A stretch of 64,000 nucleotides of DNA, from the NCBI GenBank assembly GCA_934183185.1, contig CAKPSO010000001.1:21846-85845 (forward strand). Direction: 5' to 3'. Both the position numbers and the translations under genes were made by a program. The notes under the pieces are model-generated. The model ran no database searches. It was not told where the DNA came from and saw only the letters and a program-made list of their open reading frames with translations. Position 1 is the stretch's first letter. Each line of letters opens with the position of its first letter. Shown piece after piece: positions 34,834-51,141 of the stretch. The DNA comes from an uncultured Bacilli bacterium (GTDB lineage: Bacteria > Bacillota_I > Bacilli_A > RF39 > UBA660).

Positions 34834-34848
34834 ATATTTTTAAAACGA

Positions 34849-34864
34849 TGTTCCACGTGAAACA
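34849..34864. promoter_or_regulatory. parS: parS site 6 (TGTTCCACGTGAAACA), solo, immediately upstream of the gyrA terminator
   Basis: Exact consensus parS. Confidence 0.85.
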
Positions 34865-34865
34865 T

Positions 34866-34895
34866 AAAAAAATGGCATATTCACGCCATTTTTTT
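34866..34895. terminator. Bidirectional rho-independent terminator at the gyrA 3' end (AAAAAAAUGGC-auauucac-GCCAUUUUUUU)
   Basis: 11-bp inverted repeat with an 8-nt loop, flanked by an A-run and a T-run. It abuts the gyrA TAA stop (34894-34896). Confidence 0.7.
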
Positions 34896-37509
34896 AATTT
34901 TCTATAGGACTTTCTCCTGTTTCATCAAGAGATTCACCCTCATCTTCTTTAATAATTGTAGAAACAGTAGCTACCTTTTGATCATCCTTTAATTTAATTA
35001 ATCTAACACCTTGTGTAGCTCTACTTAAAGTAGAAATTTGATCCATAGACATTCTCATAATGATACCATTATCAGTAATTATTACTAAATCCTCATTACC
35101 AGTAACAGCCTTTAAAGTAACCATCATACCATTTTTATCAGTTACATTTAAAGCCTTAACACCCTTACTTCCACGATGTGTTAATCTATATTCATCAATA
35201 GGTGTCTTTTTACCATATCCATTTTCAGTAACAACTAATACCTGTTCATCAGAAGTTATAATCTCACTACCAACAACTTTTGCACCATCTAAATCAATTC
35301 CACGAACACCAGATGCACTTCTTCCCATTACACGAATTTCGTTTTCCACAAATCTAACCATTCTACCATTAGAAGCACCAATAATTATCTCATTATCCCC
35401 AGTTGTCTTTCGAACAGCTATTAACTCATCATTCTCCTTTAATCCAATAGCTATTTTCCCACTACTACGAATATTATCAAATTCAGATAAATTTGTTCTC
35501 TTAACAACTCCATCCTTAGTTACAAAGAATAAATACTTATATTCGTGTTCCTTAGCACTAAGCGAAATAATAGAATTAATCTTTTCATCCTTTTCAAGTG
35601 ATAATAAATTAATAATTGGCAGTCCCTTACTTTGCCTGCTAAATTCTGGAACCTCATAACCTTTCATTCTATACACTTTTCCCTTATTACTAAAGAATAA
35701 TATATAATCATGAGTCTCCATATTTAACATTTTTTCCACAAAATCCTCTTCATTAGTTGACATACCCTTTATACCAACACCACCACGATTTTGTGTTCTA
35801 TACTCATCAGCAAGCATTCTCTTAATATAACCTCTGTTAGTCAAAGTTATTAAAATGTTTTCCACAGGTATAAGTGATTCATCCTCAATATAATCAACAG
35901 CTGTCATATCTATCTTAGTTCTACGATCATCACTGTATTTTTTCTTAATTTCTAACATTTCATTCTTAATAATGTCCAAAACCCTTTGCCCATTAGCTAA
36001 AATATCCTTATAATCAGCTATTTTAACTAATAAATCATTTAATTCAGCCTCAATCTTTCCACGTTCCAATCCAGTTAAACGACGTAATCTCATTTCAAGA
36101 ATACTGTTAGCCTGAATCTCATCTAAATTAAATCTAGACATTAAATTAGCCCTAGCATCATCATCACTCTCAGCTGCCCTAATAATACGAACAACCTCAT
36201 CAATATTATCAAGTGCTATACGCAATCCTTCTAAAATGTGGACTCTTTCCTCAGCCTTCCCTAAATCATATCTAGTTCTTCTAATAATTACCTCTTTTTG
36301 ATGATCAATATACTTAGAAATAATATCCTTTATACCCAAAGTTCTAGGAGTTTGACCATCAAGAACTAAGAAAATAATACCATATGATATTTGAAAATTA
36401 GTGTGTTTATATAACTGATTTAAAATAACCTGAGCATTAGCATCCTTCTTTAAAGTAATAGTTATTTTAATACCATTTTTTAAATCAGTATGATAATCAG
36501 AAATACCCTCTATCGTCTTATTATGTACTAATTCAGCAACCTTATTTTTTAGTTCCATAGTATTTACACCATAAGGAACCTCATCAATAATAATACAACT
36601 ATGATTACCCTGTTCTTCAATAGTAGCTTTACTACGAATAGTAATAGATCCTCTACCAGTTTCATAAGCCTTTTTAATACCAGAATTTCCTAAAATAATA
36701 CCACCTGTAGGAAAATCAGGACCTTTTATGTATTGCATCAATCCTAAAGTATCAATTTCTGGATTATCTATATAAGCAACACAACCATCTATAACCTCGC
36801 CAAGATTATGTGGAGGAATATTAGTAGCCATACCAACAGCAATTCCCATTGAACCATTAACAAGAACATTAGGAAATCTCGAAGGTAAAACCCTAGGTTC
36901 CTTTCTAGTAGCATCAAAGTTGTCATCCATATCAACAGTATCCTTATTAATATCCCTAAGCAATTCTAGTGATATCTTAGCTAATCTTGACTCAGTATAA
37001 CGCATAGCAGCTGCGCCATCACCCTCAATATTACCAAAGTTACCATGTCCATCAATTAACATATATCTTTGGTTAAAATCCTGAGCTAAACGCACCATTG
37101 CCTCATAAATAGAACTATCTCCATGAGGATGATAATTACCCATAACTTCTCCGACCGTTTTAGCGCTCTTTCTATGAGGTTTGTCAGGAGTATAACCTGA
37201 TTCATACATAGACCATAAAATACGTCTGTGAACAGGCTTTAAACCATCTCTAAGGTCAGGTAAAGCACGTGATTTAATAACACTCATCGAATATTCCATA
37301 AAAGATGTCTTAACTTCATCAACGATATTATTATGATCTAACCTATCTCTTTCATGAAAATATCCACTAAAATTATTACCAATATTCATTTTATCCACAT
37401 CTTGTTGAGAATTATTATCATTAATAATAGTATTAGAATCACTATTCTGCTCTTGACTATCATCACCTGCTCTATTTAATAACTCATTTAAATCATCTTT
37501 ATTATCCAT
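34894..37509 (-). CDS. gyrA: DNA gyrase subunit A, with a ~45-aa N/D/Q-rich N-terminal extension
   Basis: Canonical [25 protein letters not shown], an active-site Tyr region, and C-terminal beta-pinwheel repeats. The ATG at 37509 has a GGGTGGTG RBS, so the N-terminal low-complexity extension appears genuine. Confidence 0.95.
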
Positions 37510-37520
37510 AATACACCACC

Positions 37521-39458
37521 CTAAATATCAATATTCTGCACATAATCAGCATTTTCTTCTATAAACTTACGCCTAGGCTCAACTTCATCACCCATTAATT
37601 TTTCAAAAATAGAATCAGCCGCTACACAATCTTCAACTGTAATTTTTCTCAATACTCTCTTTTCAATATCCATAGTTGTTTCATTTAATTCTTCAGCATC
37701 CATTTCTCCTAAACCTTTCATACGAGCTATTTCTGCCTTAGAACGAACATTTTCGGGTAACGTTACTAAATAATCAGCCAACTCTTCATCATTTAACACA
37801 TATTTTCTAGTTTTACCATGTTGAATTCTATAAAGTGGTGGTTGAGCAGCATAAACATGCCCAGCCTCAACAATAGGTCTAAAGAAGCGATAAAATAATG
37901 TTAGTAATAATACACGAATATGTGAACCATCAACATCGGCATCAGTCATAATAATAATCTTATCATAACGTAATTTAGATAAATCAAAGTATTCCCCGAT
38001 ACCAGTACCAAAAGCTGTAATAATAGTTTTGATTTCCTCATTGCCAAGTGCTTTATCCACTCTAGCCTTCTCAACATTCAAAATTTTACCTCTAAGTGGT
38101 AAAATAGCCTGAGTCATAGAATCTCTACCCTTTTTAGCAGATCCACCTGCACTATCCCCTTCGACTATGAATATTTCTGAAACACTAGGATCCTTACTCT
38201 TACAATCAGATAACTTTCCAAAGAAATTAGTTACAGCCAAATCACTTTTTCTAGTAGCTTCTCTTGCACGTTTAGCAGCCATTCTAGCATTTCTAGCTAA
38301 AATAGCTTTATTAACTATAATTTTAGCCTCATCAGGATTTTCTAATAAAAATCTTTCAAATCCTTCTGAAAAAACACTATCAGCAAGTCCACGTACTTCT
38401 GAATTACCTAATCTTCCCTTAGTTTGACCCTCAAACTGAGGATTTGGATGCTTACATGAAATAATCATAGTAAGTCCTTCTTTAACATCATCCTCTTTTA
38501 AATTTTCATCTTTGTCTTTCAACATATTATTCTTACGAGCATAATTATTAATTACCCTAGATAAAGCCCTTTTAACACCATCTTCATGAGTACCACCATC
38601 ATGAGTATTAATATTATTAACAAAAGAATAAATATTAGTATTATAAGAAGTATTATACTGCATAGCTACTTCAAAAAATACATTATCTTTTTCTCCACTT
38701 AAATGAATAATATCATCATGTATAGGAGTCTTCTCCTGATTTATAAATCTAACATACTCGCTTATACCACCTTCATACAAGAATGTTTCACCAGTAGTAT
38801 CTTCAAGATCTCTATCATCTCTTATATTAATTGATAAACCTCTATTTAAAAATGCCAATTCTCTTACTCTAACTTTCAAAGTTTCATAATCATAAATATC
38901 AGTATCAAATATATCAGGATCAGGTTTAAATGTAACTGTAGTTCCTGTTCTAGATTCTTCACAATCACCTATTACATGAAGTGGTTCTACTGTATGTCCA
39001 CCATTTTCAAATCTAATTTTATATATTTTACTATTTTTATATACTGTAACTTCAACCCATTTACTAAGAGCATTAACTACACTAGCTCCAACACCATGTA
39101 ATCCTCCAGAAACTTTATAGCCTCCACCACCAAATTTACCTCCAGCATGTAAAACTGTATAAACTGTTTCAACAGTAGATATCCCTGTTTTTGGATGTAC
39201 ATCAACTGGTATTCCTCTACCATCATCTTTTACTGTAATAGAATTATCTTTGTTTATAACTACCTCTATATTATTACAGTACCCAGCTAAGGCTTCATCT
39301 ATTGCATTATCAACTATTTCCCATACTAAGTGATGCAATCCCTTAACATCTGTAGTTCCTATATACATTCCTGGCCTTTTTCTTACAGCCTCTAAACCTT
39401 CCAATACTTGAATATCAGAAGCATCATAATGATTTGTTACTTTTTCTTCTAAACTCAT
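37521..39458 (-). CDS. gyrB: DNA gyrase subunit B
   Basis: GHKL ATPase motifs ([31 protein letters not shown]), a Toprim domain ([10 protein letters not shown]), and the C-terminal tail. Confidence 0.95.
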
Positions 39459-39460
39459 AC

Positions 39461-40576
39461 TTATTCCACCCTCTCTGTTACATTACCATGATCAACTATA
39501 AATATTTTGGCTTGATTAACTATTTTCTTTTGAATATTTTTCAAATCAGTAGTAGTAATAATTGTCTGAATACCATTAGGTATATATTCAATTAGTTTAT
39601 TTCTCTTTTTAATATCTAATTCACTAAATATATCATCTAGTAATAAAATTGGACTTGTACCAATTTCTTGATTAAAAAATGAAACTTCTGCTAATTTAAA
39701 GGCAATAATAGCTACTCTTTGTTGACCTTGTGAAGCATAATACTTCATGTTATTATCACCTATAAAAAAAGAAAAATCATCACGATGTGGTCCATACAAA
39801 GTAATACCTTGCATAATTTCCTTTTTTATATTTGACTTCAACTTTTTTGAAAATTGCTCAATAATTTTTTCTTCTTCAAAACTACCTAAATCAATATTGT
39901 TTTCATAAATAATATTAAGATCACTAAGACCCATTATATCTTTATAAATCAATGAAATCTTAGAATTAATATAATCTAAATACTTTTTTCTAAAAATATA
40001 TATTTTAGTACCTCTATCAATCAATTTTTCATCGATTACTTCTAAATATCTTAAATCAGAAAAACCATTAATATTCATCTGTTTCAAGTATTCATTTCTA
40101 GTTTTCAATAGTTTATTATATTCATTTAAACAAGTTACATATTTTGGATATAATTGACTAATTTGAACATTTAATAGATTTCTTCTAATTTGGGGAGAAC
40201 CTTTAATAATATCTAAATCAGTAGGTGCAAACATAATAACATTCATACTAGATATATATGAAGCTATTTTTTTTACTTCTTTTTGATTTATAAACACTTG
40301 TTTATTTTCATTATCAAATTTTATCATCAATTCTTTTAAATTATCCTTAGTCCTAAGTGTCCCTTGTACCTTGCATGTAGAATATCCACTTTGAATAATA
40401 CTACTTTCAAACCCTAAGCGATACGATTTAGTAAGTGCAAGCATATATATACTTTCTAAAATATTTGTTTTTCCTTGAGCATTATCACCAATAAAAATAT
40501 TAATCTTATCACATAGTTTTATTTTTTGTTTTTTATAATTTCTAAAATGATCTAACTCAATTTTTGATAAATACAT
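39461..40576 (-). CDS. recF: DNA replication and repair protein RecF
   Basis: Walker [15 protein letters not shown], the ABC signature and the D-loop. Synteny dnaN-x-recF-gyrB. Confidence 0.9.
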
Positions 40577-40669
40577 AAAAAGCCCCCAAAAAACTCATAT
40601 AATCACCTTTTAATAAAATTAATACACCTATACTTGCACATATATTATACCACAGTAACAGCCTAAAAT

Positions 40670-40712
40670 CACACAAAAAAAGAAAAAGCAGCTATTTTTT
40701 TTCTGCTTTTCT
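40670..40712 (-). terminator. Rho-independent terminator of the ComK-like gene (AGAAAAGCAG-loop-CUGCUUUUUCU followed by a U7 run)
   Basis: Inverted repeat agaaaaagcag/ctgcttttct at 40681-40712 overlapping the last codons of the ORF, with an A-run at 40674-40680 on the plus strand. Confidence 0.6.
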
Positions 40713-41144
40713 ACTATTTATTAAATATTTTAATCGTGTAGCTCTCAAAATCTGATTATCAAGTGAATTTTTTGAAGTATCTATAGTTATATGCTTACCA
40801 TTAATAAGTGTAACATTAGCCTTATTATTCTTTTTTTCTATGGAACTTATAGAATTCAAAGAAAACCAACCACAACACTTAGTAATAGGAGAGGCCGTTG
40901 GAAAGAATATTAATTCATTACTCTCCTCTACTATAATTGGAACTTTATAATTACATCCCAATAGTTTTCTACTACCATCTACTCTACCTTGATAACTACT
41001 ACCAAAGTAACTACAACTATTTTCCATTACTTCATAGGCATGTTCCCCGATAATAAAATCACTATCATTCTCAATAACTCTAGTTTTACCATTTTTTAAG
41101 CCTATAATAGCTAAAGTATTATTACCTAATTCATATTTACTCAT
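40692..41144 (-). CDS. comK: ComK-family competence transcription factor-like protein
   Basis: NSCSYFGSSYQGRVDGSRKLLGCNYKVPIIVEESNELIFFPTASPITKCCGWFSL aligns with B. subtilis ComK (RSCRFFGSSYAGRKAGTYEVTKISHKPPIMVDPSNQIFLFPTLSSTRPQCGWISH). ATG at 41144 with an AGGGGGA RBS. The ORF-track start is a GTG. Confidence 0.6.
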   Translation of the reverse strand: MSKYELGNNTLAIIGLKNGKTRVIENDSDFIIGEHAYEVMENSCSYFGSSYQGRVDGSRKLLGCNYKVPIIVEESNELIFFPTASPITKCCGWFSLNSISSIEKKNNKANVTLINGKHITIDTSKNSLDNQILRATRLKYLINSRKAEKK

Positions 41145-41243
41145 TATTTTTCCCCCTAACACTTCTAATTCGAATTAGTGCCATATATTATAATCACACT
41201 AGATGTCGAATAATAAGTATTTATGGGTAATATCTAACTTTTA

Positions 41244-42365
41244 TTAATAAGTACGAATTGGTAACACTAATTGAGTTAAGCCTTCATCTTTTTTAGATTT
41301 TAAAATAATAGGTTTAACTTCTCCAACAAAAGAAATTTCTACTTCATCATCATCAAAAGCTTTTAAAGCCTCCATCATGTATTTAGCTACAAAAGAAATT
41401 TTCAAATTTTCTTCGTTATTTTTTTCAATAGTCATCTTTTCTTCTACCTTACCAATCTCAGCACTACTACTCTTAACATATAATTTATTATCATCTATCT
41501 CAAATGTTACTATATTCTTTTCTTTATCACTAGTTAAAATACTAGCACGATCAATTACATTATATAAATCACTTATATTAGCCTTAATAGACAACATAAA
41601 CTCTTCAGGAAGTAAATTTGAAGTATTAGGATAAGTTCCACTAATCAATCTAGATTGGAATAGTAAATTCTGATATTTAATTAAAATTTTATTATTAAAT
41701 ACATGTAATTCTAAATTATCCTCACTATCATCCATTATCTTAATAAATTCTAATAAATTTTTACTTGGAATAACTATATTATAATTATCATTTATAGTTT
41801 CATTTAAACGAATAACTTTTCTAGCCAATCTATAAGAGTCTGTAGAATTACATTCTAATATATCTCCTAATATTTTAAAATTAATACCTGTAAGTATTGG
41901 TCTAGATTCATCATTACTAGATGCAAATGATGTTTGACTAATTATAGACTTAAATACTCTAGCTGCAACAGTAACTGGACTTTTACTTTCTTCTAAATTA
42001 ATACTAGGATACTCATTTTTATTAATACCATTTAAATTAAATTCACTATTTTCTGTGTAAATAATTATTTTCAAATCATCTACAACTTCTATATTAATAT
42101 ATTCATCAGGTAATTTACGAACTATATCTAATATATATTTTCCTTGTATAATAATAGATCCTTCTTGATCTATATTCATATCTTCATCTTTTTCTATAAA
42201 TACTTTAATAGTAATATCATTATCACTAGCAGTAAGTGTAAGTCCATTATTATCTAAATCAAATTTAATTCCTGCAAGAACAGGGACTAAATTTTTTGTA
42301 CTAATTGCTTTTGATACTTTATTTAAACCATCTAATAAAACCTCTTTTTTAATTTTTAATTTCAT
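41244..42365 (-). CDS. dnaN: DNA polymerase III beta sliding clamp
   Basis: 373 aa with the three-domain beta-clamp pattern. Lies immediately downstream of dnaA. Confidence 0.95.
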   Translation of the reverse strand: MKLKIKKEVLLDGLNKVSKAISTKNLVPVLAGIKFDLDNNGLTLTASDNDITIKVFIEKDEDMNIDQEGSIIIQGKYILDIVRKLPDEYINIEVVDDLKIIIYTENSEFNLNGINKNEYPSINLEESKSPVTVAARVFKSIISQTSFASSNDESRPILTGINFKILGDILECNSTDSYRLARKVIRLNETINDNYNIVIPSKNLLEFIKIMDDSEDNLELHVFNNKILIKYQNLLFQSRLISGTYPNTSNLLPEEFMLSIKANISDLYNVIDRASILTSDKEKNIVTFEIDDNKLYVKSSSAEIGKVEEKMTIEKNNEENLKISFVAKYMMEALKAFDDDEVEISFVGEVKPIILKSKKDEGLTQLVLPIRTY

Positions 42366-42505
42366 ATTATATTCCTTCTTTCTTAATTAATATTATTATT
42401 ATTACAGTGGAAACTGTGAATAACTCTTAAAATCCTTTTATTATATATATTTTTATCAACTATTACTTGTGGATAATTTATGTAAAAAGTAATAGTTTTA
42501 CACAA
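42366..42505. promoter_or_regulatory. oriC: dnaA-dnaN intergenic DnaA-box cluster / AT-rich unwinding region (second half of a bipartite oriC)
   Basis: Perfect box complement TGTGGATAA at 42468-42476. Weaker boxes AGTGGAAAC/TGTGAATAA at 42400-42424. An (AT)n tract ttatatatatttttatc at 42441-42457. Confidence 0.6.
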
Positions 42506-43882
42506 TCACACTATTTCTTTCTTTAATTTTTCAATTATATTGGCTAATTCTTTATTAGACAACATCTCCCTCTCTATCTTTTCGACAGAATGCATTACTG
42601 TTGAGTGATCTTTACCTCCAAATTCAATTCCTATTTTAGGAAATGATTCATTAGTAAGTTTTCTACATAAATACATAGCTACTTGCCTAGGAAATGCTAA
42701 ATTAGCACTTCTTTTCTTAGATTTCATATCATCTACTGATATTTGAAAGTGTTCAGCAACTATTCTTTGAATTCTATTAATATTATTTTTTTCACTATAT
42801 CCTTTATTTACATAATCTTTCAATACTTCTATAGCTAAATCAAGTGTTATATCAGTACCACCCATTATTGTGGAATAAGCTAACAGTCTAGTAATTGAAC
42901 CTTCCAGATGTCGCACATCACTTCCTACGTTAGAGGCAATATACTCAATAACGTCATCAGGTATATTTTTATTAATAGAATCCCCTATTATCTTCTTTTT
43001 AAGAATAGCTACGCGTAAATCAAAATCAGGTGGATAAATATCAGCGGTCAAACCCCAACAGAATCTAGTTCTAAGTCTATCTTCTAATAGTTTTAAATCA
43101 TCTGGTGATCTATCTGAAGATATTATTATTTGCTTATTATCATTATATAAAGTAGTAAATGTATGGAAAAATTCATTTTGTGTTTGAGTAGCTCCCTGAA
43201 AAAACTGTATATCATCAATAATTAAAACATCTATATTTCTATATTTATCTTTAAAGTAATTAACATAGTCAAAGTTTTTACCATGCTCATCCTTTTTATT
43301 AATACCAAGAAAATCATTTATAAATTGATCACTAGAAACATATAAAACTTTCTTATTACTATGCTGTTCAATATAATTACCAATTGCATGCATCAAATGT
43401 GTCTTCCCTAGTCCACTATTTCCATATATAAATAGTGGATTATAAATATTTCCAGGATTTTCTGCTACATCCAAAGCAGCTGCTTGTGCAAAACGATTAC
43501 TATTACCAACTATAAAATTTTCAAATGTATAATTTGGATTAAGGTTAGATTTATGTTTTCTTTCAATATTATTTTCTGCTTGATTATCAAATAAAGAAAT
43601 TCTCTCTTCTCTAACTACTTTTTCTTCTGTTTCAATTTCTTCTTTTAAGAAAAACTGAATGTCAACATTGTCACCTATAATATCAGATAATGTACTAGTA
43701 ATTAAATCATAATATCTAGTAGCTAAATGTCTTTTAAACATTCCCATGGGAACTATAATTTTAGCTACGCCATCTTTATATTCATACAATTCTGTATCTT
43801 TAAACCAGGTATTAAAGGATAATGGTGTCATTTCATTTTTTATACTGTTTAAAAAATTAGACCAAATGATTTTCACATTCAT
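42506..43882 (-). CDS. dnaA: Chromosomal replication initiator protein DnaA
   Basis: AAA+ Walker A (GNSGLGKTHLMHAIG), Sensor/Box VII, and the C-terminal DnaA signature (HSTVMHS). True start MNVKIIWSNFL... at 43882 with a GGGGAGGGATAAT RBS. The 96-nt extension in the ORF track is an artefact running into DnaA boxes. Confidence 0.95.
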   Translation of the reverse strand: MNVKIIWSNFLNSIKNEMTPLSFNTWFKDTELYEYKDGVAKIIVPMGMFKRHLATRYYDLITSTLSDIIGDNVDIQFFLKEEIETEEKVVREERISLFDNQAENNIERKHKSNLNPNYTFENFIVGNSNRFAQAAALDVAENPGNIYNPLFIYGNSGLGKTHLMHAIGNYIEQHSNKKVLYVSSDQFINDFLGINKKDEHGKNFDYVNYFKDKYRNIDVLIIDDIQFFQGATQTQNEFFHTFTTLYNDNKQIIISSDRSPDDLKLLEDRLRTRFCWGLTADIYPPDFDLRVAILKKKIIGDSINKNIPDDVIEYIASNVGSDVRHLEGSITRLLAYSTIMGGTDITLDLAIEVLKDYVNKGYSEKNNINRIQRIVAEHFQISVDDMKSKKRSANLAFPRQVAMYLCRKLTNESFPKIGIEFGGKDHSTVMHSVEKIEREMLSNKELANIIEKLKKEIV

Positions 43883-44259
43883 ATTATCCCTCCCCTGCAT
43901 AAGAATAATTTGTAAGTCATATTGTAACTTAATTTTGTGGAAAAATAAATAGATAAAATTAACTTTTTTTAAATACACAGCATGTCCACAATATATTCAC
44001 ATATTTTTCAACAAAAAATCATCTATATTATATAAGAAAATTGATTAATTATCAACAGATTAGAAAAAAATATAAAATAACATGTTGAAAAAGTTATGCA
44101 CATGCCTGTGGAAAATGTGGAAAACTAAATTCATAGATAGGATTACTTCTTAAACAATATTAAAAAATTTAAAATTTTAAACATTTATGTGGAAAATAAT
44201 TGACAAAAATGTATTTTATCTTATATACTAATGTAGATTTTACGACTGGAGGTGGAATT
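43883..44259. promoter_or_regulatory. oriC: oriC: DnaA-box cluster between dnaA and rpmH (point of gene-orientation switch)
   Basis: TGTGGAAAA at 43936-43944, 44107-44115, 44116-44124 (a tandem pair) and 44188-44196. TGTCCACA at 43983-43990. AT-rich spacer. rpmH promoter TTGACA(44200-44205)-N17/18-TATACT. Confidence 0.8.
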
Positions 44260-44382
44260 ATGAAAAGAACTTATCAACCAAATAATAGAAAAATGAAAAA
44301 GAAACATGGATTTTTTGCAAGAATGAAGTCTAACGTATTAAATCGTCGTAGAGCAAAAGGTCGTAAAAGATTATCTAAGTAA
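44260..44382 (+). CDS. rpmH: 50S ribosomal protein L34
   Basis: [40 protein letters not shown] is canonical L34. GGAGGTG RBS. The ORF-track start at 44200 is an upstream in-frame ATG sitting within the promoter. Confidence 0.9.
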
Positions 44383-44384
44383 AA

Positions 44385-44411
44385 GCCACTGTGTGCATAG
44401 TGGTTTTTTTT
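44385..44411 (+). terminator. Hairpin plus T-run between rpmH and rnpA (terminator/attenuator)
   Basis: CCACU-gugugcau-AGUGG followed by a U8 run. Confidence 0.55.
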
Positions 44412-44438
44412 CTATTATATTAAAATGCAGGTGATAAA

Positions 44439-44795
44439 TTGAAAAAGTATAATGTCTTAAAGGAAAACAACGATTTTCAACAAATAATTACTAAAAGTAA
44501 TTTTAAAAAAGATTGTAACATAGTACTTTATTATAGAAAAAATAATTTAGACCATTATCGTTTTGGTATATCTGTTGGTAAAAAAATTGGTAATGCAGTA
44601 ACAAGAAATTATTATAAAAGAATCTTAAGAAATATCGTGGATCATAATAAAAAACTATGTTCAAATGACAAAGATTATATTATAATAATAAAGAAGAACT
44701 GTTTATGTGCAACATATGATCAAATAGAGAAGAGCTTTCAAAATCTAATTATAAACAGTAATAAAGGAGAAAAAAATGAAGAGAAAGAATTATAA
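44439..44795 (+). CDS. rnpA: Ribonuclease P protein component
   Basis: 118-aa basic protein with the RnpA RNR-like motif region (KKIGNAVTRNYYKRILR). TTG start with an AGGTGA RBS. Synteny rpmH-rnpA-yidC-jag. Confidence 0.85.
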   Translation: MKKYNVLKENNDFQQIITKSNFKKDCNIVLYYRKNNLDHYRFGISVGKKIGNAVTRNYYKRILRNIVDHNKKLCSNDKDYIIIIKKNCLCATYDQIEKSFQNLIINSNKGEKNEEKEL

Positions 44796-45708
44796 AAAGC
44801 TAATAATTGTCTCAAGCTTAGTACTTTTACTAACTGGATGTACAACAACACTAAAGACAGAAGATAAAAAAGTAGTAAAAAACCCAGAAACAGGACAAAG
44901 TTTAACTGCAAATATTTTATGTAGGCCAACCAACAAAGAAACAATCAAAGCTTATGAAGAAAATGGAGTGGATTTAGCAGCTATACCTAAATGTAGTGAG
45001 TTTAAAATAACAAGTGGTGGTTATGATGGACTATGGACTAGTATATTTGTTAAACCATTAGCTTTCATCATACTATTTATAAGTAAATATGTTAAAAGTG
45101 CTGGATTTGCCTTAATACTAACAAGTTTACTATTAAGATTAATCCTATACCCACTAACTAAAAAAACTGCAATGCAATCAGAATTAATAAAAAAAGCTCA
45201 ACCAGAATTAGATAGATTAGAAAAGAAATATGCTAATAAAACAGATTCAGACTCAATGATGAAAAAGAGTCAAGAAATGACTCTAATATATAAAAAGCAC
45301 AATATTAACCCAATCTCAGGATGTGCATATTCACTTATTCAATTACCATTATTTATAGCTTTCCTAGAAGCAATAAATAGGGTACCAGCTTTATTTGAAG
45401 AAAATTTCTTACTATTACAATTAGGTACAACACCATCTGTAGGTTTATTCAATAATGGAAATTGGTTATATCTTATATTAATAGTTTTAGTAGGATTAAC
45501 TACATACTTCTCATTCAACTTAAATAAAACATCATCAACGAATACTAAAGATCCAATGACTAATATGACTAACATAATGACTGGTATGATAACCGTAATG
45601 GGTATATTCATGCCAACAGCTTTATGTATTTATTGGATTACTACTAACTTATTTACTATAGCTCAAAACTTAATAGTAAAAAGAAGTAAGGAGGTATTAG
45701 CAAAATGA
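44776..45708 (+). CDS. yidC: Membrane protein insertase YidC/SpoIIIJ (lipoprotein form)
   Basis: Lipobox LLTGC, a 60-kDa inner membrane insertase core with 5 TM helices, and a conserved C-terminal basic tail. Confidence 0.85.
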   Translation: MKRKNYKKLIIVSSLVLLLTGCTTTLKTEDKKVVKNPETGQSLTANILCRPTNKETIKAYEENGVDLAAIPKCSEFKITSGGYDGLWTSIFVKPLAFIILFISKYVKSAGFALILTSLLLRLILYPLTKKTAMQSELIKKAQPELDRLEKKYANKTDSDSMMKKSQEMTLIYKKHNINPISGCAYSLIQLPLFIAFLEAINRVPALFEENFLLLQLGTTPSVGLFNNGNWLYLILIVLVGLTTYFSFNLNKTSSTNTKDPMTNMTNIMTGMITVMGIFMPTALCIYWITTNLFTIAQNLIVKRSKEVLAK

Positions 45709-46316
45709 TAAAAAATAGATATACTGGAAAGACTAGAGAAGATGCAATTAATAATGCTAAAATATCTCTTCAAGAATTAGAAGAAAATTTATATATTAAA
45801 GAAATAGAAGTAAAAAACAGTTTATTTAATAAAAAAGTTGAAATAGAAGTAATAAGACATGATGACGTAGTAGAATATATAAAAGAATATATAAAAGAGT
45901 TAGTTAAAAATATGGGCTTAGCAGTTAATTTAGAGGTTAAAAAGAGAAACGATAACATAATGTATATTCTATATACTGATAATAACTCAATTTTAATAGG
46001 AAAAAATGGTAGAACATTAGATGCAATAACTACAATAGTAAAACAAGTAGTACATAAAGAAATAGGTGAGTATTTTAAATTTACTATTGATGTAGGAGAA
46101 TACAAACAGGCTAGAGAACAAAGACTAGAATCTTTAGCTAAAAAAGTAGCTAGAGAAGTATCTACATCTAAAGTAGCTGCAAAACTAGATCCAATGAATT
46201 CATATGAAAGAAGAATTATTCATACTATTTTAGCGGATAATAAGAAAGTAACTACAGAAAGTGAAGGGGAAGAACCTAATCGCTATGTAGTAATTAAACC
46301 AAAGGAAGATGAATAA
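45705..46316 (+). CDS. khpB: RNA-binding protein Jag/KhpB (KH and R3H domains)
   Basis: A C-terminal R3H motif region (SYERRIIHTILAD) and a KH-like domain. Conserved position after yidC. Confidence 0.8.
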   Translation: MIKNRYTGKTREDAINNAKISLQELEENLYIKEIEVKNSLFNKKVEIEVIRHDDVVEYIKEYIKELVKNMGLAVNLEVKKRNDNIMYILYTDNNSILIGKNGRTLDAITTIVKQVVHKEIGEYFKFTIDVGEYKQAREQRLESLAKKVAREVSTSKVAAKLDPMNSYERRIIHTILADNKKVTTESEGEEPNRYVVIKPKEDE

Positions 46317-46374
46317 TCTTCTTTTCTTTTTACAAAAAAAATGGTAGTATATGCTATATAAAAGAGGTGTTACT

Positions 46375-47730
46375 ATGAATGATACAATCACAGCCATTTC
46401 CACAACTCAAGGAGTAGGTGCAATATCAATAATCAGAGTTAGTGGTAATGATGCCATAAAAATAGTAAATAAAATATTTAAGGGAAAAAATCTAGAAACA
46501 GTAGAAAGTCATACAATTAACTATGGACATATCATAGATAAAGATGAAGTGATTGATGAAGTATTAGTATCAGTTATGAAATCACCTAAAACTTTCACAA
46601 CAGAAGATATAGTAGAAGTTAATTGCCATGGTGGTATTTCCACTACTAATAAAGTTTTAGAACTCATATTAAATAATGGTGCTAGACTAGCTGAACCTGG
46701 AGAATTTACGAAAAGAGCCTTCTTAAATGGTAGAATAGACTTAACTCAAGCAGAATCTGTAATGGACTTAATCAATTCTAAGAATGAATCTAAAAGAAAA
46801 GTAGCCATTAAAGGTTTAAATGGTTATGTTAGCAATATTATCAGAAACTTAAGACAAGAAATACTAGAGTTACTTGCATCAATAGAAGTAAATATAGATT
46901 ATCCAGAGTATGAAGATGCAATTGTGATGACTAATGATATCGTAAAGCCAAAGATTGCTGAAATAAAAGAAAAATTAGCTAAAATTATTAATGAATCTGA
47001 AAATAGTAAGATTTTAACTAGTGGTATTAAAACTATTATTATTGGAAAACCAAATGTAGGAAAAAGTAGTATTTTAAATAGATTATTAGATGAAGAAAAA
47101 GCAATTGTTACTGATATTGAAGGAACAACTCGTGATACGGTTGAAGGTTCTATTACGATTAATGGAGTATCTTTAAATATTATTGATACAGCTGGCATTC
47201 GTGAAACAGAAGATATTGTAGAGAAAATAGGGGTAGAGAAGAGTTTAAGTTTAATTAATGAAGCTGATTTAATTATTATTGTTTTAAATAATAATGAAGA
47301 ATTAACAGAAGAAGATAAAAAAATACTAGCCTCATGCAAAGATAAAAAAGTAATTGTAGTTATTAATAAAAACGATTTAGAAAGAAAAATCAATATTAAA
47401 GACATCAATTATAAAAATATAATTTATACAAATACAGTGGATTTGTCTGGGATAGATTCTTTAAAAGAAAAGATAGTAGAATTATTTAATTTAAATGAAC
47501 TTGAACAACAAGATTATACTTATCTAAGCAATGTCAGACAAATTTCACTAGCAAAAGAAGCTAATAGTATATTAGAAGAAGTAGATAATGGAATCAAAAA
47601 TGAAGTACCAGTTGATATGATAGAAATTGATATTAAGCGTGCCTGGGAAAAACTTGGTGAAATAATAGGTGAAACTTACACCGAAGAATTAATAGACCAA
47701 CTATTTAGTCAGTTCTGTTTAGGTAAATAA
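46375..47730 (+). CDS. mnmE: tRNA modification GTPase MnmE
   Basis: N-terminal DTITAISTTQGVGAISIIRVSG, G-domain motifs (GKPNVGKSS, DTAG, NKND), and the C-terminal CLGK. ATG at 46375 with an AAGAGGTG RBS. Confidence 0.9.
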   Translation: MNDTITAISTTQGVGAISIIRVSGNDAIKIVNKIFKGKNLETVESHTINYGHIIDKDEVIDEVLVSVMKSPKTFTTEDIVEVNCHGGISTTNKVLELILNNGARLAEPGEFTKRAFLNGRIDLTQAESVMDLINSKNESKRKVAIKGLNGYVSNIIRNLRQEILELLASIEVNIDYPEYEDAIVMTNDIVKPKIAEIKEKLAKIINESENSKILTSGIKTIIIGKPNVGKSSILNRLLDEEKAIVTDIEGTTRDTVEGSITINGVSLNIIDTAGIRETEDIVEKIGVEKSLSLINEADLIIIVLNNNEELTEEDKKILASCKDKKVIVVINKNDLERKINIKDINYKNIIYTNTVDLSGIDSLKEKIVELFNLNELEQQDYTYLSNVRQISLAKEANSILEEVDNGIKNEVPVDMIEIDIKRAWEKLGEIIGETYTEELIDQLFSQFCLGK

Positions 47731-47779
47731 AATTATAAAAAATGTTATATTAATACAAAAATTATAATTTAATATTAAA

Positions 47780-47803
47780 AATTATTTCCCGGGAAATAAT
47801 TTT
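47780..47803. promoter_or_regulatory. Noc-binding-site palindrome AAATTATTTCCCGGGAAATAATTT (solo copy) upstream of the mnmG promoter
   Basis: 24-bp perfect palindrome with an NBS core, about 35 bp upstream of a GTGTATAAT -10 element at 47834-47842. Confidence 0.7.
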
Positions 47804-47874
47804 TTTCTATTTCTACTAAAAAAATTAGAAATATAGTGTATAATAATTCCAGAAAAAAGAGGAAGTGTATCAAA

Positions 47875-49734
47875 ATGGAATATGATATTATCGTTGTAGG
47901 TGGAGGTCATGCTGGTTGTGAAGCATCACTATCATCAGCTCGTCTACATAATAAAACTTTATTAGTAACAGGAAATATAAAAAATATAGCTGATATGCCA
48001 TGCAATCCATCAATAGGTGGACCCGCAAAAGGAATTATTGTAAGAGAAATAGATGCCTTAGGTGGTGAAATGGCTAATAATATTGATCATAGCTGTCTAC
48101 AAGTCAAAATGTTAAATACAAAAAAAGGCCCAGCTGTAAGAGCATTAAGGGCACAAGGTGATAAAATTACTTATCCAAAAGCTATGTTAGAAACTATGAA
48201 AAACCAAGAAAATCTAGAGATTAAAGAATCACTAGTAGAAGACTTAATCGTAGAAGATAATAAAGTAAAAGGTGTAGTTTTAGAAAACGGAGAAAAGATT
48301 TATGCCAAAGCAGTAGTTCTAACAACAGGAACATACTTAAAAGCAGTTATTCTAAGAGGAGCTAAAAAAACAGTTAGTGGTCCACACGGTGAAAGACCAT
48401 CTAAATTTTTAAGTGATAAACTAAGAGAGTATGGATTTACGATTCAAAGATTAAAAACAGGAACTCCTCAAAGAATAGATAAAAATAGTATTGATTATTC
48501 AAAAACTAGCCTAGAACCAGGTGATAGCGTTCCACATACTTTTTCATTTGATAACACACCACTTTATAAAGTAGAAGACCAAGTACCATGTCATCTAATC
48601 TATACAACGAAAGAAACTCATAAAATTATTATGGATAACCTAGAAAAATCAAGTATGTATGGTGGTTATGTAGAAGGAATTGGCCCTAGATATTGTCCTT
48701 CAATAGAAGATAAAGTAGTTCGTTTTAAAGATAAAGAAAGACATCAACTATTCCTAGAGCCAGAAAGTTTATATTATGATGATATTTACATTCAAGGTTT
48801 TTCAACCAGTATGCCAGAAGAAATTCAAGATTTAATGGTTCATAGCTTACCAGGATTAGAAAATGCCAAAATATTAAAATATGCTTATGCGATTGAATAT
48901 GACGCTATAGACCCTCTACAATTAAAACAGTCACTTGAAACTAAAATACTGGAAAACCTATTTACAGCCGGACAAATAAACGGTACAAGTGGCTATGAAG
49001 AAGCAGCAGGACAAGGATTAATAGCTGGTATCAATGCATCTCGTAAGATTCATAATCAAGAACCATTAATTCTTAAAAGAAATGAAGCCTATATTGGTGT
49101 ATTAATTGATGATTTAGTAACAAAAGGGACTAAAGAACCATATCGTATGTTAACATCTCGTGCTGAATATCGTTTATTACTTCGTCATGATAATGCTGAT
49201 TTAAGATTAAGAGAATATGGACATGAAATAGGTTTAATAACAGAAGAAAGATATCAAAAGTTTGTAGAAAAGAAGAATCAAATCAAAGAATTAATTAATC
49301 TATTAAAAGAAAATAAAATCACACCTACAAGAGATACCAATGAATATTTAACAAGTATTAATTCAACTAAATTATTAGATGGTATTACCTTATATGAACT
49401 ATTAAAAAGACCAGAAATAACATTTACTAATATAAAACACTTTATAGATATTAACTATAGCGATGAAGTAGTAGAACAAGTTGAAATAATGGATAAGTAT
49501 GAAGGTTATATCGTAAAAGCAAATAGGGAAGCCGAAAAAATGTTAGACTTAGAAAAAGTAAAAATACCAGAAGATATAAACTATGATAATGTTCATAACC
49601 TAGCCAGTGAAGCAAGACAAAAATTAGCTCAAGTAAGACCAACTACTATCGCGCAAGCTTCCCGTATTAGTGGTGTTAATCCTGCTGATATTTCTATATT
49701 AATGGTCTATTTAAAAAAGGAAAAACGAATATGA
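47875..49734 (+). CDS. mnmG: tRNA uridine 5-carboxymethylaminomethyl modification enzyme MnmG (GidA)
   Basis: FAD-binding MEYDIIVVGGGHAGCEA N-terminus and highly conserved GidA core. ATG at 47875 with an AGAGGAAG RBS. Confidence 0.95.
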   Translation: MEYDIIVVGGGHAGCEASLSSARLHNKTLLVTGNIKNIADMPCNPSIGGPAKGIIVREIDALGGEMANNIDHSCLQVKMLNTKKGPAVRALRAQGDKITYPKAMLETMKNQENLEIKESLVEDLIVEDNKVKGVVLENGEKIYAKAVVLTTGTYLKAVILRGAKKTVSGPHGERPSKFLSDKLREYGFTIQRLKTGTPQRIDKNSIDYSKTSLEPGDSVPHTFSFDNTPLYKVEDQVPCHLIYTTKETHKIIMDNLEKSSMYGGYVEGIGPRYCPSIEDKVVRFKDKERHQLFLEPESLYYDDIYIQGFSTSMPEEIQDLMVHSLPGLENAKILKYAYAIEYDAIDPLQLKQSLETKILENLFTAGQINGTSGYEEAAGQGLIAGINASRKIHNQEPLILKRNEAYIGVLIDDLVTKGTKEPYRMLTSRAEYRLLLRHDNADLRLREYGHEIGLITEERYQKFVEKKNQIKELINLLKENKITPTRDTNEYLTSINSTKLLDGITLYELLKRPEITFTNIKHFIDINYSDEVVEQVEIMDKYEGYIVKANREAEKMLDLEKVKIPEDINYDNVHNLASEARQKLAQVRPTTIAQASRISGVNPADISILMVYLKKEKRI

Positions 49735-50429
49735 ATTTAGAATTATTTATAGAAGAAACAAAAAAATTAGGTATTACTCTAACAGACTTGCAACTAGAAA
49801 AATTAAATCAATTTTATGAATTATTAATTTCATGGAATCAAAAAATGAATCTAACTAGAATAACAGAAAAAGAAGATGTTTACTTAAAACATTTCTATGA
49901 TAGTCTAACACTTAGTAAAGTAATAGATTTAAAACAAGACTTAACTTTATGTGATGTTGGTAGTGGTGCTGGATTTCCAGGAATTGTTTTAAAAATCTGT
50001 TTTCCTAATTTAAAAATAACTTTACTAGATTCTCTTCAAAAAAGAGTAAATTATTTAAATGAAATAATAAAAGAATTAGATTTAAAAGATATAGAAGCTA
50101 TTCATACTAGAGCAGAAGATTATGCTAAACAAAATCGTGAAAAATTTGATATTGTAACAGCTAGAGCAGTAGCTAATCTTAAAATACTATCAGAATTATG
50201 TATTCCAATGGTAAAAGTAAACGGTTTATTTATTGCAATGAAAGCAACTATTGAAGAAGAACTTGCAAACAGCATGGAAATATTAAAAAAATTAGATAGT
50301 AAAATTGAAAAAGTAGAAACATTCTATTTGCCAGTAGAAAATAGTATTAGAAATATTATTTTGATTCAAAAATTAAAATCAACTAATAGAATTTATCCAA
50401 GAAGAATAGAAAAAATAAGAACAAAATAA
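49731..50429 (+). CDS. rsmG: 16S rRNA (guanine527-N7)-methyltransferase RsmG (GidB)
   Basis: SAM motif DVGSGAGFPGIVLKI. Overlaps the mnmG stop, which is the typical gidA-gidB arrangement. Confidence 0.9.
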   Translation: MNLELFIEETKKLGITLTDLQLEKLNQFYELLISWNQKMNLTRITEKEDVYLKHFYDSLTLSKVIDLKQDLTLCDVGSGAGFPGIVLKICFPNLKITLLDSLQKRVNYLNEIIKELDLKDIEAIHTRAEDYAKQNREKFDIVTARAVANLKILSELCIPMVKVNGLFIAMKATIEEELANSMEILKKLDSKIEKVETFYLPVENSIRNIILIQKLKSTNRIYPRRIEKIRTK

Positions 50430-50457
50430 CAGTTAAAAAATAGGGGGGTAGTAAAAT

Positions 50458-51039: not shown

Positions 51040-51070
51040 AAGTCAAAAATCCTAAATTTGACTTTTTTTC
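51039..51070 (+). terminator. Rho-independent terminator after the HD-domain gene
   Basis: AAGUCAAA-aauccuaaa-UUUGACUU followed by a U7 run. Confidence 0.6.
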
Positions 51071-51141
51071 TTGTATGAACATAAAAATATGATATAATAT
51101 ACTCAGAATAAAAGAGTAAAAGAATGAAAAGAGGGTAATTT

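What the first reader, a model, noticed from the sequence alone, without database searches (positions are those of the whole stretch)
42366..44259. Bipartite oriC with DnaA-box clusters flanking dnaA, and absolute gene-strand switch
DnaA-box 9-mers (TGTGGAAAA x4 including an abutting tandem pair at 44107-44124, and TGTCCACA) and an AT-rich tract occupy the dnaA-rpmH spacer. A perfect TGTGGATAA plus an (AT)n tract occupies the dnaA-dnaN spacer. All ~43 genes to the left are on the minus strand and all ~23 to the right are on the plus strand, with no exceptions. This degree of co-orientation is higher than the 75-85 percent typical of Firmicutes. Together with the ffs and parS locations, it fixes the origin here.
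Basis: partly seen in the sequence, partly recalled or inferred. Interest (0 to 1): 0.5.

Follow-up and report, generated by a model that had tools for sequence, protein, structure and literature searches.

The report
Canonical oriC whose neutral skew never flips
This is the standard, strongly conserved replication-origin region (DnaA-binding sites on both sides of the dnaA gene) of an uncultured gut bacterium, but the mutational strand bias that normally reverses at an origin runs straight through it for at least 100 kb, so sequence alone cannot prove that replication starts here in both directions.

Summary
DnaA boxes are enriched about 24-fold in the dnaA-rpmH spacer and about 22-fold in the dnaA-dnaN spacer. 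The latter carries a box pair followed by TAA repeats that meets the published criteria for the basal unwinding system. Both modules are conserved in position in 21 relatives (uncultured Bacilli near 'Ca. Scybalousia'). Gene order is Bacillus-like (…gyrA gyrB recF dnaN dnaA | rpmH rnpA yidC jag mnmE mnmG rsmG noc parA parB…), and every gene in the window points away from the spacer.

The bulk GC-skew flip is produced by the coding-strand switch (codon position 1). At four-fold degenerate sites the same strand is G/T-rich on both arms (ΔAT4 0.52, z=18), and intergenic AT skew does not flip either. This polarity holds from -44 to +58 kb in the window's species and two sister species. It is absent in Staphylococcus, Cellulosilyticum and some related lineages. 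It keeps its direction in lineages where the oriC segment is inverted.

Best reading: a functional canonical oriC plus an unexplained constant strand bias (0.6). Rivals: forks cross the locus from a displaced origin (0.22), or one-way replication from oriC (0.06). The 'absolute' co-orientation ends 4.7 kb beyond the window.

The parts
41244..42365 (-). dnaN (DNA polymerase III beta clamp)
   Evidence: TIGR00663 E=1.4e-91
42391..42404 (-). DnaA-trio-like repeat, 5'-TAA TAA TAA TAA TA-3' on the dnaA-sense strand, 1 nt after the box pair; overlaps a -10-like AATAAT
   Evidence: invariant in 21 relatives; published criteria: >=3 NAN, spacer <=16; promoter-like TTCACA-17-AATAAT
42406..42423 (-). 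abutting DnaA-box pair TTATTCACA (1 mismatch) + GTTTCCACT (3 mismatches)
42468..42476 (-). perfect DnaA box TTATCCACA (TGTGGATAA on + strand)
   Evidence: the position holds TTATCCACA/TTTTCCACA in most of the 21 relatives (TTATAAACA or TTATCAACA in five)
42496..42504 (-). degenerate inverted box TGTGTAAAA (2 mismatches) just after the dnaA stop; relatives have TGTGGATAA/TGTGGAAAA here
42506..43882 (-). dnaA (chromosomal replication initiator)
   Evidence: TIGR00362 E=3.7e-157
43936..43944 (+). DnaA box TGTGGAAAA about 60 nt upstream of the dnaA start, within a conserved promoter-proximal block
43983..43990 (+). TGTCCACA (ATGTCCACA, a 2-mismatch box)
44027..44055 (-). best sigma-70-like promoter for dnaA (TTGATA-17-TATAAT); overlaps box TTATCAACA 44049-44057
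44094..44124 (.). box TTATGCACA (44094-44102, +) followed by the abutting tandem pair TGTGGAAAA TGTGGAAAA (44107-44124)
   Evidence: the tandem pair is conserved in relatives
44150..44188 (.). most AT-rich stretch (27-mers >=96% AT); not conserved
44188..44229 (+). DnaA box TGTGGAAAA (44188-44196) abutting the rpmH promoter TTGACA-18-TATACT (44200-44229)
44260..44408 (+). rpmH (L34) and its intrinsic terminator (44381-44408)
   Evidence: TIGR01030; terminator scan
33742..33839 (-). ffs (small SRP RNA)
   Evidence: RF00169, 58.4 bits
33887..34864 (.). array of six parS sites in a 1054-bp non-coding gap; three sit in a 66-nt repeat with a DnaA-box-like 9-mer and the palindrome ATTTCCCGGGAAAT (Noc-binding-site type)
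1..43882 (-). left arm: all genes on the minus strand; four-fold sites in coding orientation G>C (+0.14), T>A (-0.35)
44260..64000 (+). right arm: all genes on the plus strand; four-fold sites in coding orientation C>G (-0.40), A>T (+0.17), the signature expected of lagging-strand genes

Best explanation
The region is the canonical bipartite chromosomal origin (oriC) of a low-GC member of the Bacilli. An upstream DnaA-box cluster lies between rpmH and dnaA; it also overlaps the divergent dnaA and rpmH promoters and so probably serves autoregulation. A downstream unwinding module lies between dnaA and dnaN: one perfect box, then an abutting box pair, then TAA-type DnaA-trios. Inferred mechanism, by analogy with B. 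subtilis: DnaA-ATP docks on the box pair, polymerises onto the trio strand, and stretches and opens the duplex next to dnaN. Helicases are then loaded and forks leave in both directions. Six parS sites 8-9 kb away load ParB for origin segregation. Superimposed on this, the whole clade carries a constant, non-flipping G+T enrichment of the dnaA-sense strand at weakly selected sites. Its cause is unknown and it is not explained by this model. Shown here: the sequence elements, their enrichment, their conservation and the synteny. Inferred: DnaA binding, unwinding at the trios and bidirectional firing.
For: Box enrichment is about 24-fold (dnaA-rpmH spacer) and about 22-fold (dnaA-dnaN spacer) over the window background. 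The box pair plus trios meet the published BUS search criteria: better box <=2 mismatches, second box <=4, spacer 10 bp, >=3 NAN trios. The trios and adjoining box core are invariant, and the box pair is retained, in 21 relatives with 68-90% DnaA identity while the preceding ~45 nt vary freely. The module is retained, often in better consensus form, in much more distant lineages. Box positions in the dnaA-rpmH spacer are conserved. Synteny is Bacillus-like on both sides for -44 to +58 kb, with about 92-100% of genes pointing away from the spacer. parS arrays lie 8-10 kb from dnaA throughout the clade. Bulk GC skew and intergenic GC skew both flip at dnaA, with the same magnitude as in Staphylococcus and Cellulosilyticum. 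On a 1.44-Mb contig of a sister species, dnaA is estimated to lie within about 1% of the midpoint, as expected if the assembly broke in a terminus opposite the origin. SkewDB records about 250 complete chromosomes with strongly asymmetric skew, so a constant strand term on top of normal replication has precedent.
Against: At four-fold degenerate sites the two arms have opposite skews in coding orientation: left GC4 +0.14, AT4 -0.35; right GC4 -0.40, AT4 +0.17; z=18 for AT and z=6 for GC. This means one absolute strand is G/T-rich throughout. Every left gene but one, and every right gene, follows the pattern. Minus-strand genes embedded in the right arm of sister species carry left-arm values (AT4 -0.35 vs +0.13 for neighbouring plus-strand genes), so this is a strand effect and does not depend on which genes are compared. 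Intergenic AT skew also fails to flip (constant term -0.13, flipping term 0.01, about 5 kb per arm). The bias has the classical leading-strand (keto) signature. A bidirectional origin gives no reason for such a bias. The flipping intergenic GC term could be transcriptional (purine-rich leaders). The trios overlap a promoter-like site for dnaN, so their conservation might be regulatory.
Confidence: 0.6

Rival explanations
1. Displaced functional origin. The dnaA-flanking boxes survive as regulatory elements of the dnaA, dnaN and rpmH promoters, but replication starts more than 58 kb away on the rpmH/noc/parB side. A single fork therefore crosses the whole window from right to left. It is co-directional with the left-arm genes and head-on with the right-arm genes.
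For: Neutral-site polarity is uniform from -44 to +58 kb, with the classical leading-strand signature on the minus strand. The same pattern occurs in about 20 relatives but not in controls. In L030, L033 and L029 the oriC-containing segment is inverted relative to its flanks, yet the gyrA side stays leading-like and the mnmG/noc side stays lagging-like, while genes inside the segment have re-equilibrated to the backbone. So polarity is set from outside oriC. The boxes overlap promoters.
Against: The unwinding module shows no decay; it is most consensus-like in the inverted lineages. No other DnaA-box cluster was found in the 58 kb to the right. About 60 genes, including rpsF, ssb, rpsR, rplI, dnaB, prfA, argS and secA, would have stayed head-on over long divergence, although these lineages do undergo inversions. 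Intergenic GC skew flips normally at dnaA. The strand effect (~0.26) is far larger than the apparent replication effect in canonical relatives (~0.05-0.1, inferred). dnaA sits near the midpoint of the 1.44-Mb contig.
Confidence: 0.22
2. One-way (unidirectional or rolling-circle-like) replication from this oriC. Only the fork moving towards dnaN is established or survives, so the right arm is copied last by the fork that has gone round the chromosome.
For: The uniform polarity begins immediately at rpmH/rnpA. The strand effect is large, as expected for long-lived single-stranded DNA. parS lies on the early-replicated side in the window, and in L030 it lies on the other side together with the reversed polarity. 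One-way replication has been shown for chromids (PMC7858055).
Against: In the inverted-segment lineages the inferred fork direction is opposite relative to the box-to-trio orientation. Direction therefore cannot be set by oriC's own asymmetry, and a fixed barrier outside the segment would leave a leading-type stretch that is not seen. No B. subtilis-type dif lies next to oriC. Half the genome would be head-on. dnaA sits at the midpoint of the 1.44-Mb contig, not at an end. There is no precedent for a DnaA-type primary chromosome.
Confidence: 0.06
3. Artefact: a chimeric or misassembled contig joined at the origin, or arms with different codon usage because of gene content or expression.
For: The source is a metagenome scaffold.
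Against: The same junction and the same asymmetry occur in dozens of independent assemblies, including a long-read contig and an NCBI MAG. Ribosomal-protein genes and low-expression genes on the same strand behave alike, and interspersed opposite-strand genes behave oppositely. Intergenic DNA shows the effect too.
Confidence: 0.02

Closest known systems
Bacillus subtilis oriC (incA/incB upstream of dnaA; incC with DnaA-boxes 6/7, DnaA-trios and DUE between dnaA and dnaN); the basal unwinding system of Richardson/Pelliciari/Murray (PMC6669920, PMC8287927)
   Same: rpmH | box cluster | dnaA | box pair + trinucleotide repeats with a central A | dnaN. A tandem pair in which the upstream box is the better match. 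Spacer of 10 bp. Same flanking synteny (recF gyrB gyrA on one side; rnpA yidC jag mnmE mnmG rsmG noc parA parB on the other).
   Different: The trios are TAA, not the TAG-type consensus (3'-GAT-5'). Only about 25 nt separate the trios from the dnaN ribosome-binding site, so there is no obvious separate 27-mer AT-rich DUE. A ComK-family gene replaces yaaA between dnaN and recF. Neutral-site skew does not flip here.
Clostridioides difficile and Helicobacter pylori bipartite origins (PMC7561715, PMC8235120)
   Same: Two DnaA-box clusters separated by dnaA, with unwinding assigned to the cluster downstream of dnaA.
   Different: Those origins were mapped experimentally; this one is inferred from sequence only.
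Chromosomes with 'highly asymmetric skew' in SkewDB (PMC8941118) and 'asymmetric' cumulative skew in Chen et al. 2020 (PMC7111523)
   Same: Bulk GC skew is about 2.4 times larger on one arm than the other (-0.31 vs +0.13), equivalent to a constant strand term added to a flipping term. The cause is unexplained there too.
   Different: Here the constant term is resolved to four-fold sites and intergenic A/T. It is shown to be specific to a clade and independent of oriC orientation. Those surveys did not separate site classes in this way and list no relatives of this clade.
Unidirectionally replicating Pseudoalteromonas chromids (PMC7858055)
   Same: No sign change of strand bias across the origin region.
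   Different: Those are RepA-type, plasmid-derived replicons with dif next to ori. This is a DnaA-type primary chromosome with ancestral divergent gene orientation and no dif nearby.

Membership tests
Firmicutes-type bipartite oriC | DnaA-box clusters on both sides of dnaA, enriched over background | tested here: met
   6 boxes in 377 bp and 2 in 140 bp (<=1 mismatch) vs 0.66 per kb background; P=2.6e-7 and 4e-3
Firmicutes-type bipartite oriC | rpmH-dnaA-dnaN-recF-gyrB-gyrA synteny with divergent transcription | tested here: met
   NCBIfam assignments; ORF map
Firmicutes-type bipartite oriC | Elements conserved in related genomes | tested here: met
   Alignments of both spacers in 21 relatives; more distant lineages
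Basal unwinding system (BUS) | DnaA box (<=2 mismatches), optional second box (<=4), spacer <=16 bp (mode 10-13), then >=3 NAN trios | tested here: met
   TTATTCACA (1 mismatch) + GTTTCCACT (3) + G + TAA x4, TAT, TAA; spacer 10 bp. The strand convention could not be checked against the published figures (not held).
Basal unwinding system (BUS) | AT-rich DNA unwinding element next to the trios | tested here: inconclusive
   No 27-mer >=96% AT in the dnaA-dnaN spacer. The only such stretch is 44150-44188 in the other spacer and is not conserved. In a 72% AT genome, AT-richness is not discriminating.
Basal unwinding system (BUS) | DnaA-ATP-dependent strand separation and oligomerisation on the trios | not testable with these tools
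   Requires a BHQ strand-separation or crosslinking assay with this clade's DnaA
Functional bidirectional replication origin | Bulk GC-skew sign change / cumulative minimum | tested here: met
   Cumulative minimum at 43-45 kb, but explained by the coding-strand switch (codon position 1)
Functional bidirectional replication origin | Sign change of strand bias at weakly selected sites (four-fold sites, intergenic DNA) | tested here: not met
   Four-fold sites: same plus-strand sign on both arms, z=18 (AT) and z=6 (GC); same in relatives and out to +58 kb. Intergenic AT does not flip; intergenic GC does flip. Controls flip.
Functional bidirectional replication origin | Copy-number maximum (marker frequency / read depth) at the locus | not testable with these tools
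   No read data available
Unidirectionally replicating replicon | dif/terminus adjacent to the origin | tested here: not met
   No match to the B. subtilis-type dif core with <=3 mismatches in the window; a divergent dif cannot be excluded
Unidirectionally replicating replicon | Fork direction fixed by the origin's own orientation | tested here: not met
   Polarity keeps the backbone direction when the oriC segment is inverted (L030, L033, L029)
ParB-parS chromosomal centromere | 16-bp palindrome TGTTNCACGTGNAACA near the origin, with parA and parB present | tested here: met
   Six sites (0.02 expected) at 33887-34864; parA and parB at 52336-53992; arrays conserved in the clade
Noc-binding site (NBS) | Palindrome ATTTCCCGGGAAAT, with a noc gene present | tested here: met
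   Five exact sites in the window, 0 expected. A noc-like ParB paralogue lies at 51142-52230, scoring 288 bits, below the 315-bit cutoff of TIGR04285. The NBS consensus is from my own knowledge (Wu et al. 2009); the papers read confirm only that the NBS is a 16-bp site bound by Noc.

The most novel reading that the evidence does not exclude
In a whole clade of uncultured, small-genome, spore-forming gut Bacilli ('Ca. Scybalousia' and allies), a perfectly conserved canonical oriC is not the place where replication-type mutational polarity reverses. One fork direction is recorded at neutral sites for at least 102 kb across dnaA, whichever way the oriC segment is oriented. That would mean the chromosome is habitually replicated through its own dnaA-oriC locus, either from a displaced or non-canonical origin or in a one-way mode. 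In that case about 60 essential and highly expressed genes would be kept head-on to replication.
Probability: 0.3. Interest if true: 0.8.

Novelty: new member of a known kind. Interest (0 to 1): 0.5.

Why it matters
As an origin annotation this is routine. It adds a well-conserved example of the box-pair/DnaA-trio unwinding module from an uncultured lineage.

The result that matters is methodological and possibly biological. In genomes with near-total gene co-orientation, a bulk GC-skew minimum together with DnaA boxes does not independently confirm an origin, because the coding-strand switch alone produces the minimum. When coding effects are removed, this clade shows a strong strand bias of the leading-strand type that does not reverse at oriC.

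If that bias reflects fork direction, these bacteria would challenge two assumptions for Firmicutes: that oriC next to dnaA is the firing site, and that essential genes are kept co-directional with replication. If it does not reflect fork direction, it is a clean, clade-restricted example of the unexplained 'asymmetric skew' class. It even comes with a natural inversion experiment, which could help identify the process behind that class.

Tried and rejected
(1) The 1-kb parS/DnaA-box-like gap (33840-34893) as an alternative origin: rejected, because gyrA to dnaA between it and dnaA are leading-like for a leftward fork.

(2) dif next to oriC: none found with the B. subtilis-type core.

(3) The PBP|argS divergent spacer at about +29 kb as a hidden origin: no DnaA boxes in 20 kb, and GC4 does not switch.

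(4) The 900-bp gap upstream of hpf at about +54 kb: no box cluster and no Rfam family.

(5) SNP spectra among strains, to see whether the asymmetry is still being generated. Raw counts were not significant. Per-base rates were only suggestive (T-loss/A-loss 1.38 and 1.80 on the plus strand in the two arms, each p about 0.08) and the G/C comparison is confounded by selection.

(6) Walking further right: the last homology search, with the N-terminal part of Mbl, returned only fragments. The helicase look-up failed, probably because of the start codon chosen. The exact L34 protein occurs only in the window's own species, so the dnaA locus could not be anchored directly on the 1.44-Mb contig.

(7) 'Opposite-strand ORFs' in relatives' dnaN arms as a way to separate transcription from replication terms: they are short and probably spurious.

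(8) Literature lists of 'rolling circle' or 'unidirectional' bacterial replicons: no relatives of this clade.

(9) Expression-driven codon bias as the cause of the arm difference: rejected.
Full report
WHAT IS THERE

The window is 72% A+T. It matches a 92-kb gut-metagenome scaffold exactly (ena:ERZ28613749 scaffold_716; 13,246 of 13,246 overlapping bases). The closest named relatives are MAGs labelled uncultured Bacilli or 'Candidatus Scybalousia', with best DnaA identity 90%.

NCBIfam identifies the following genes:
- dnaA at 42506-43882 (-) and dnaN at 41244-42365 (-)
- recF, gyrB and gyrA further left
- tadA, dnaX and recR beyond a 1-kb gap
- to the right: rpmH (44260-44382), rnpA, yidC, jag, mnmE, mnmG, rsmG, a noc-like ParB paralogue, parA, parB, mscS, abgT, ychF, rpsF, ssb, rplI and the replicative helicase

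This is the origin-proximal gene order of Bacillus subtilis (my own knowledge).

CHECKING THE OBSERVATION

- TGTGGAAAA occurs 11 times in the window against 0.85 expected. Four copies lie in the 377-bp dnaA-rpmH spacer.
- With <=1 mismatch to TTATCCACA, that spacer has 6 boxes (0.25 expected, P=2.6e-7). The 140-bp dnaA-dnaN spacer has 2 (0.09 expected, P=4e-3). All other intergenic DNA has 0.42 per kb.
- ffs and six parS sites are present.
- All real genes left of the spacer are on the minus strand and all to the right are on the plus strand. Opposite-strand ORFs are nested inside longer ones.

Read in the dnaA-to-dnaN direction, the downstream spacer is:
TTATCCACA, then about 45 nt, then TTATTCACA-GTTTCCACT-G-TAATAATAATAATA, then about 25 nt, then the dnaN ribosome-binding site.

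This fits the published search definition of the basal unwinding system: a box with <=2 mismatches, an optional second box with <=4, a spacer <=16 bp (mode 10-13), and at least three NAN trios (PMC8287927).

In 21 relatives with 68-90% DnaA identity, the trios and the adjoining box core are invariant and the box pair is retained, while the preceding 45 nt vary freely. In far more distant lineages the module is retained, sometimes as a perfect consensus. L033, for example, has TTATCCACA TTATCCACA GCAA TAATAATAATAA.

Box positions in the dnaA-rpmH spacer are also conserved. The outermost boxes abut the best promoter-like sites for dnaA and rpmH.

One caveat: the trios overlap a promoter-like TTCACA-17-AATAAT for dnaN. 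Part of their conservation could therefore be regulatory.

THE SKEW TEST

Bulk GC skew changes from about -0.31 to about +0.13, with the cumulative minimum at 43-45 kb. Bulk AT skew is about 0 on the left and +0.2 on the right.

Splitting by codon position shows why. Position 1 has GC skew +0.43 to +0.50 in coding orientation in both arms, so any switch of coding strand produces a bulk flip.

At four-fold degenerate sites, in coding orientation:
- left arm (40 genes, 4051 sites): GC4 +0.14, AT4 -0.35
- right arm (19 genes, 1879 sites): GC4 -0.40, AT4 +0.17
- differences: z=18 for AT and z=6 for GC

All but one left-arm gene are T>A and all right-arm genes are A>T. This includes ribosomal-protein genes and low-expression genes alike. 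In plus-strand terms, both arms are A- and C-rich. The minus strand carries the classical leading-strand (G+T) signature on both sides of dnaA.

IS THE ASYMMETRY REAL AND GENERAL?

The same test on ±10 kb around dnaA in 50 other genomes gave:
- the same asymmetry in all of the ~20 close relatives
- matching arms in Staphylococcus, Cellulosilyticum, Oscillospiraceae and some related low-GC lineages (L028, L031, L038)

Extending to the right:
- The window's own scaffold continues with plus-strand genes to +24.8 kb, all lagging-like. Then comes LemA on the minus strand, which is leading-like.
- In two sister species the right arm could be followed to +58 kb through B. subtilis-like synteny (argS, pta, prfA, prmC, spoIIR, murA, rpmE, rpiB, spoIIID, mbl, hpf, secA).
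- There, about 90% of genes are on the plus strand with AT4 about 0 to +0.2. The five interspersed minus-strand genes have AT4 about -0.35.

Genes a few hundred bases apart but on opposite strands therefore differ exactly as the two arms do. This is a strand effect and does not depend on which genes are compared.

Intergenic DNA pooled over 15 loci of the clade gives a codon-independent confirmation for A/T. AT skew of the dnaA-sense strand is -0.14 upstream and -0.11 downstream (about 5-6 kb each). That is a constant term of -0.13 and a flipping term of 0.01. Controls have constant terms of -0.05 to +0.04.

Intergenic GC skew behaves differently. It flips at dnaA by 0.22, similar to the controls (0.19-0.35), with only a small constant term (+0.06).

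A NATURAL EXPERIMENT

In L030, L033 and L029 the central segment [mnmE jag yidC rnpA | dnaA dnaN] is inverted relative to its flanks. As a result recF-gyrB-gyrA follow mnmE, and mnmG-rsmG-noc follow dnaN. In these lineages:
- the gyrA-side genes are still T>A
- the mnmG/noc-side genes are still A>T
- the genes inside the inverted segment have changed sign

The polarity therefore belongs to the chromosome backbone and does not follow the orientation of oriC. Enough time has also passed for neutral sites to re-equilibrate.

WEIGHING THE EXPLANATIONS

A canonical bidirectional origin is supported by:
- the enriched, positionally conserved boxes
- the intact unwinding module in every lineage
- the ancestral divergent gene orientation over 100 kb
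- the nearby parS array
- the flipping intergenic GC skew
- weakly, dnaA lying within about 1% of the midpoint of a 1.44-Mb sister-species contig

It gives no reason for a constant strand bias. SkewDB does record about 250 complete chromosomes with strongly asymmetric skew of unknown cause (PMC8941118).

A displaced origin explains the polarity and the inversion result. It has these problems:
- it predicts decay of the unwinding module, which is not seen
- it requires about 60 essential genes to remain head-on for a very long time
- no second box cluster was found within 58 kb
- the strand effect (about 0.26) is much larger than in canonical relatives

One-way firing from oriC is contradicted by the inversion lineages, where the inferred direction is opposite relative to the box-to-trio orientation. 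There is also no adjacent dif. The only experimentally shown precedents are plasmid-derived chromids (PMC7858055). Published lists of 'rolling circle' or 'unidirectional' patterns contain no relatives.

An assembly artefact is excluded by recurrence in dozens of independent assemblies.

My confidences:
- functional canonical oriC plus an unexplained constant bias: 0.60
- forks traversing from a displaced origin: 0.22
- one-way replication: 0.06
- artefact: 0.02
- the remainder is unassigned

THE CO-ORIENTATION CLAIM

The claim is true within the window, but it ends 4.7 kb beyond it. Co-orientation is about 92% over the first 58 kb of the right arm in sister species. The block is a deeply conserved set of housekeeping operons, so the number of independent transcription units is much smaller than the number of genes. 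Comparing it with genome-wide averages is not like for like (inference). It is not anomalous.

VERDICT

The finding is a correct description of an ordinary, well-conserved bipartite oriC in a new lineage. It is a new member of a known kind. The inference that sequence features 'fix the origin here' needs a qualification that turns out to be the most interesting part. The one test that is independent of gene orientation is the sign change of bias at weakly selected sites. That test fails for A/T and for four-fold G/C, in a clade-specific and reproducible way.

Noticed in passing
window 33840-34893; also L001 19040-21216, L003, L013, L014, L018, L032: The 1054-bp non-coding gap between ffs and gyrA holds six parS sites about 130-300 bp apart. 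Three are in a 66-nt repeat: parS + TGTGTATAA-type DnaA-box-like 9-mer + perfect 22-nt palindrome AATTATTTCCCGGGAAATAATT (Noc-binding-site type). Relatives carry 4-10 parS interleaved with up to 7 NBS at the same place. Such a dense, non-coding parS/NBS array is unlike the dispersed, mostly intragenic parS sites of B. subtilis.
   Followed up: partly
window 27192, 34079, 34371, 34678, 47784: Five exact ATTTCCCGGGAAAT palindromes (0 expected). Two lie outside the array: one just upstream of the gene ending at 27177, and one in the mnmE-mnmG spacer. The latter position is conserved in relatives (e.g. L001 5942, 7475).
   Followed up: partly
window 33418, 33646, 34825, 37391 and 33018-35866: Four further perfect TTATCCACA boxes and six TTTTCCACA lie on the plus strand inside dnaX, tadA and gyrA or next to a parS site. 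This local excess of DnaA boxes 6-11 kb from dnaA could be a DnaA-titrating cluster, or could reflect codon/strand composition.
   Followed up: no
window 40692-41162 (-); L112 6433-6885: The gene between dnaN and recF, where Bacillus has yaaA, is called as a ComK-family protein (PF06338) in the collection's annotation. It has no NCBIfam hit at E<=1e-25.
   Followed up: no
L030, L033, L029 (whole loci): An inversion symmetric about oriC, with end points about 3-4 kb either side of dnaA (mnmE|mnmG and dnaN|recF), swaps the flanks of the origin segment in one related lineage.
   Followed up: yes
L087 (ena:ERZ28750358:contig_10267, 1,436,344 bp): A near-complete 1.44-Mb genome of a sister species. 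dnaA is estimated at about 707-713 kb, within about 1% of the contig midpoint (718 kb). Several ORFs are split relative to other strains, suggesting long-read indel errors.
   Followed up: partly
L086-L093 (sister species, +27 to +58 kb from dnaA): These small genomes (about 1.4 Mb) carry sporulation genes in Bacillus-like order (gerQ, spoIIR, an M23/SpoIIQ-like peptidase, spoIIID, mbl). This suggests an endospore-forming lifestyle for a lineage often labelled Tenericutes or Mollicutes in databases.
   Followed up: no
L080 18638-19707 (just beyond the window's right end): An IS3-type transposase (rve domain) ends the source scaffold directly after LemA. Sister species have GerQ and a class A PBP at that position.
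   Followed up: no
window 21790-21988 (-): T-box leader (RF00230, 100 bits) upstream of the gene at 21277-21777.
   Followed up: no
window 51142-52230 (+): The noc-like ParB paralogue is 362 aa, longer than the parB product (296 aa). It scores 288 bits, below the 315-bit cutoff of the Noc model. An HD-domain gene lies between rsmG and noc.
   Followed up: no
(all loci): Lineages with non-flipping polarity have a much larger neutral-site strand effect (|rho| about 0.26-0.35 in AT4) than canonical relatives (both arms about -0.06 to -0.26, implying about 0.05-0.1 after subtracting the coding-strand term).
   Followed up: partly
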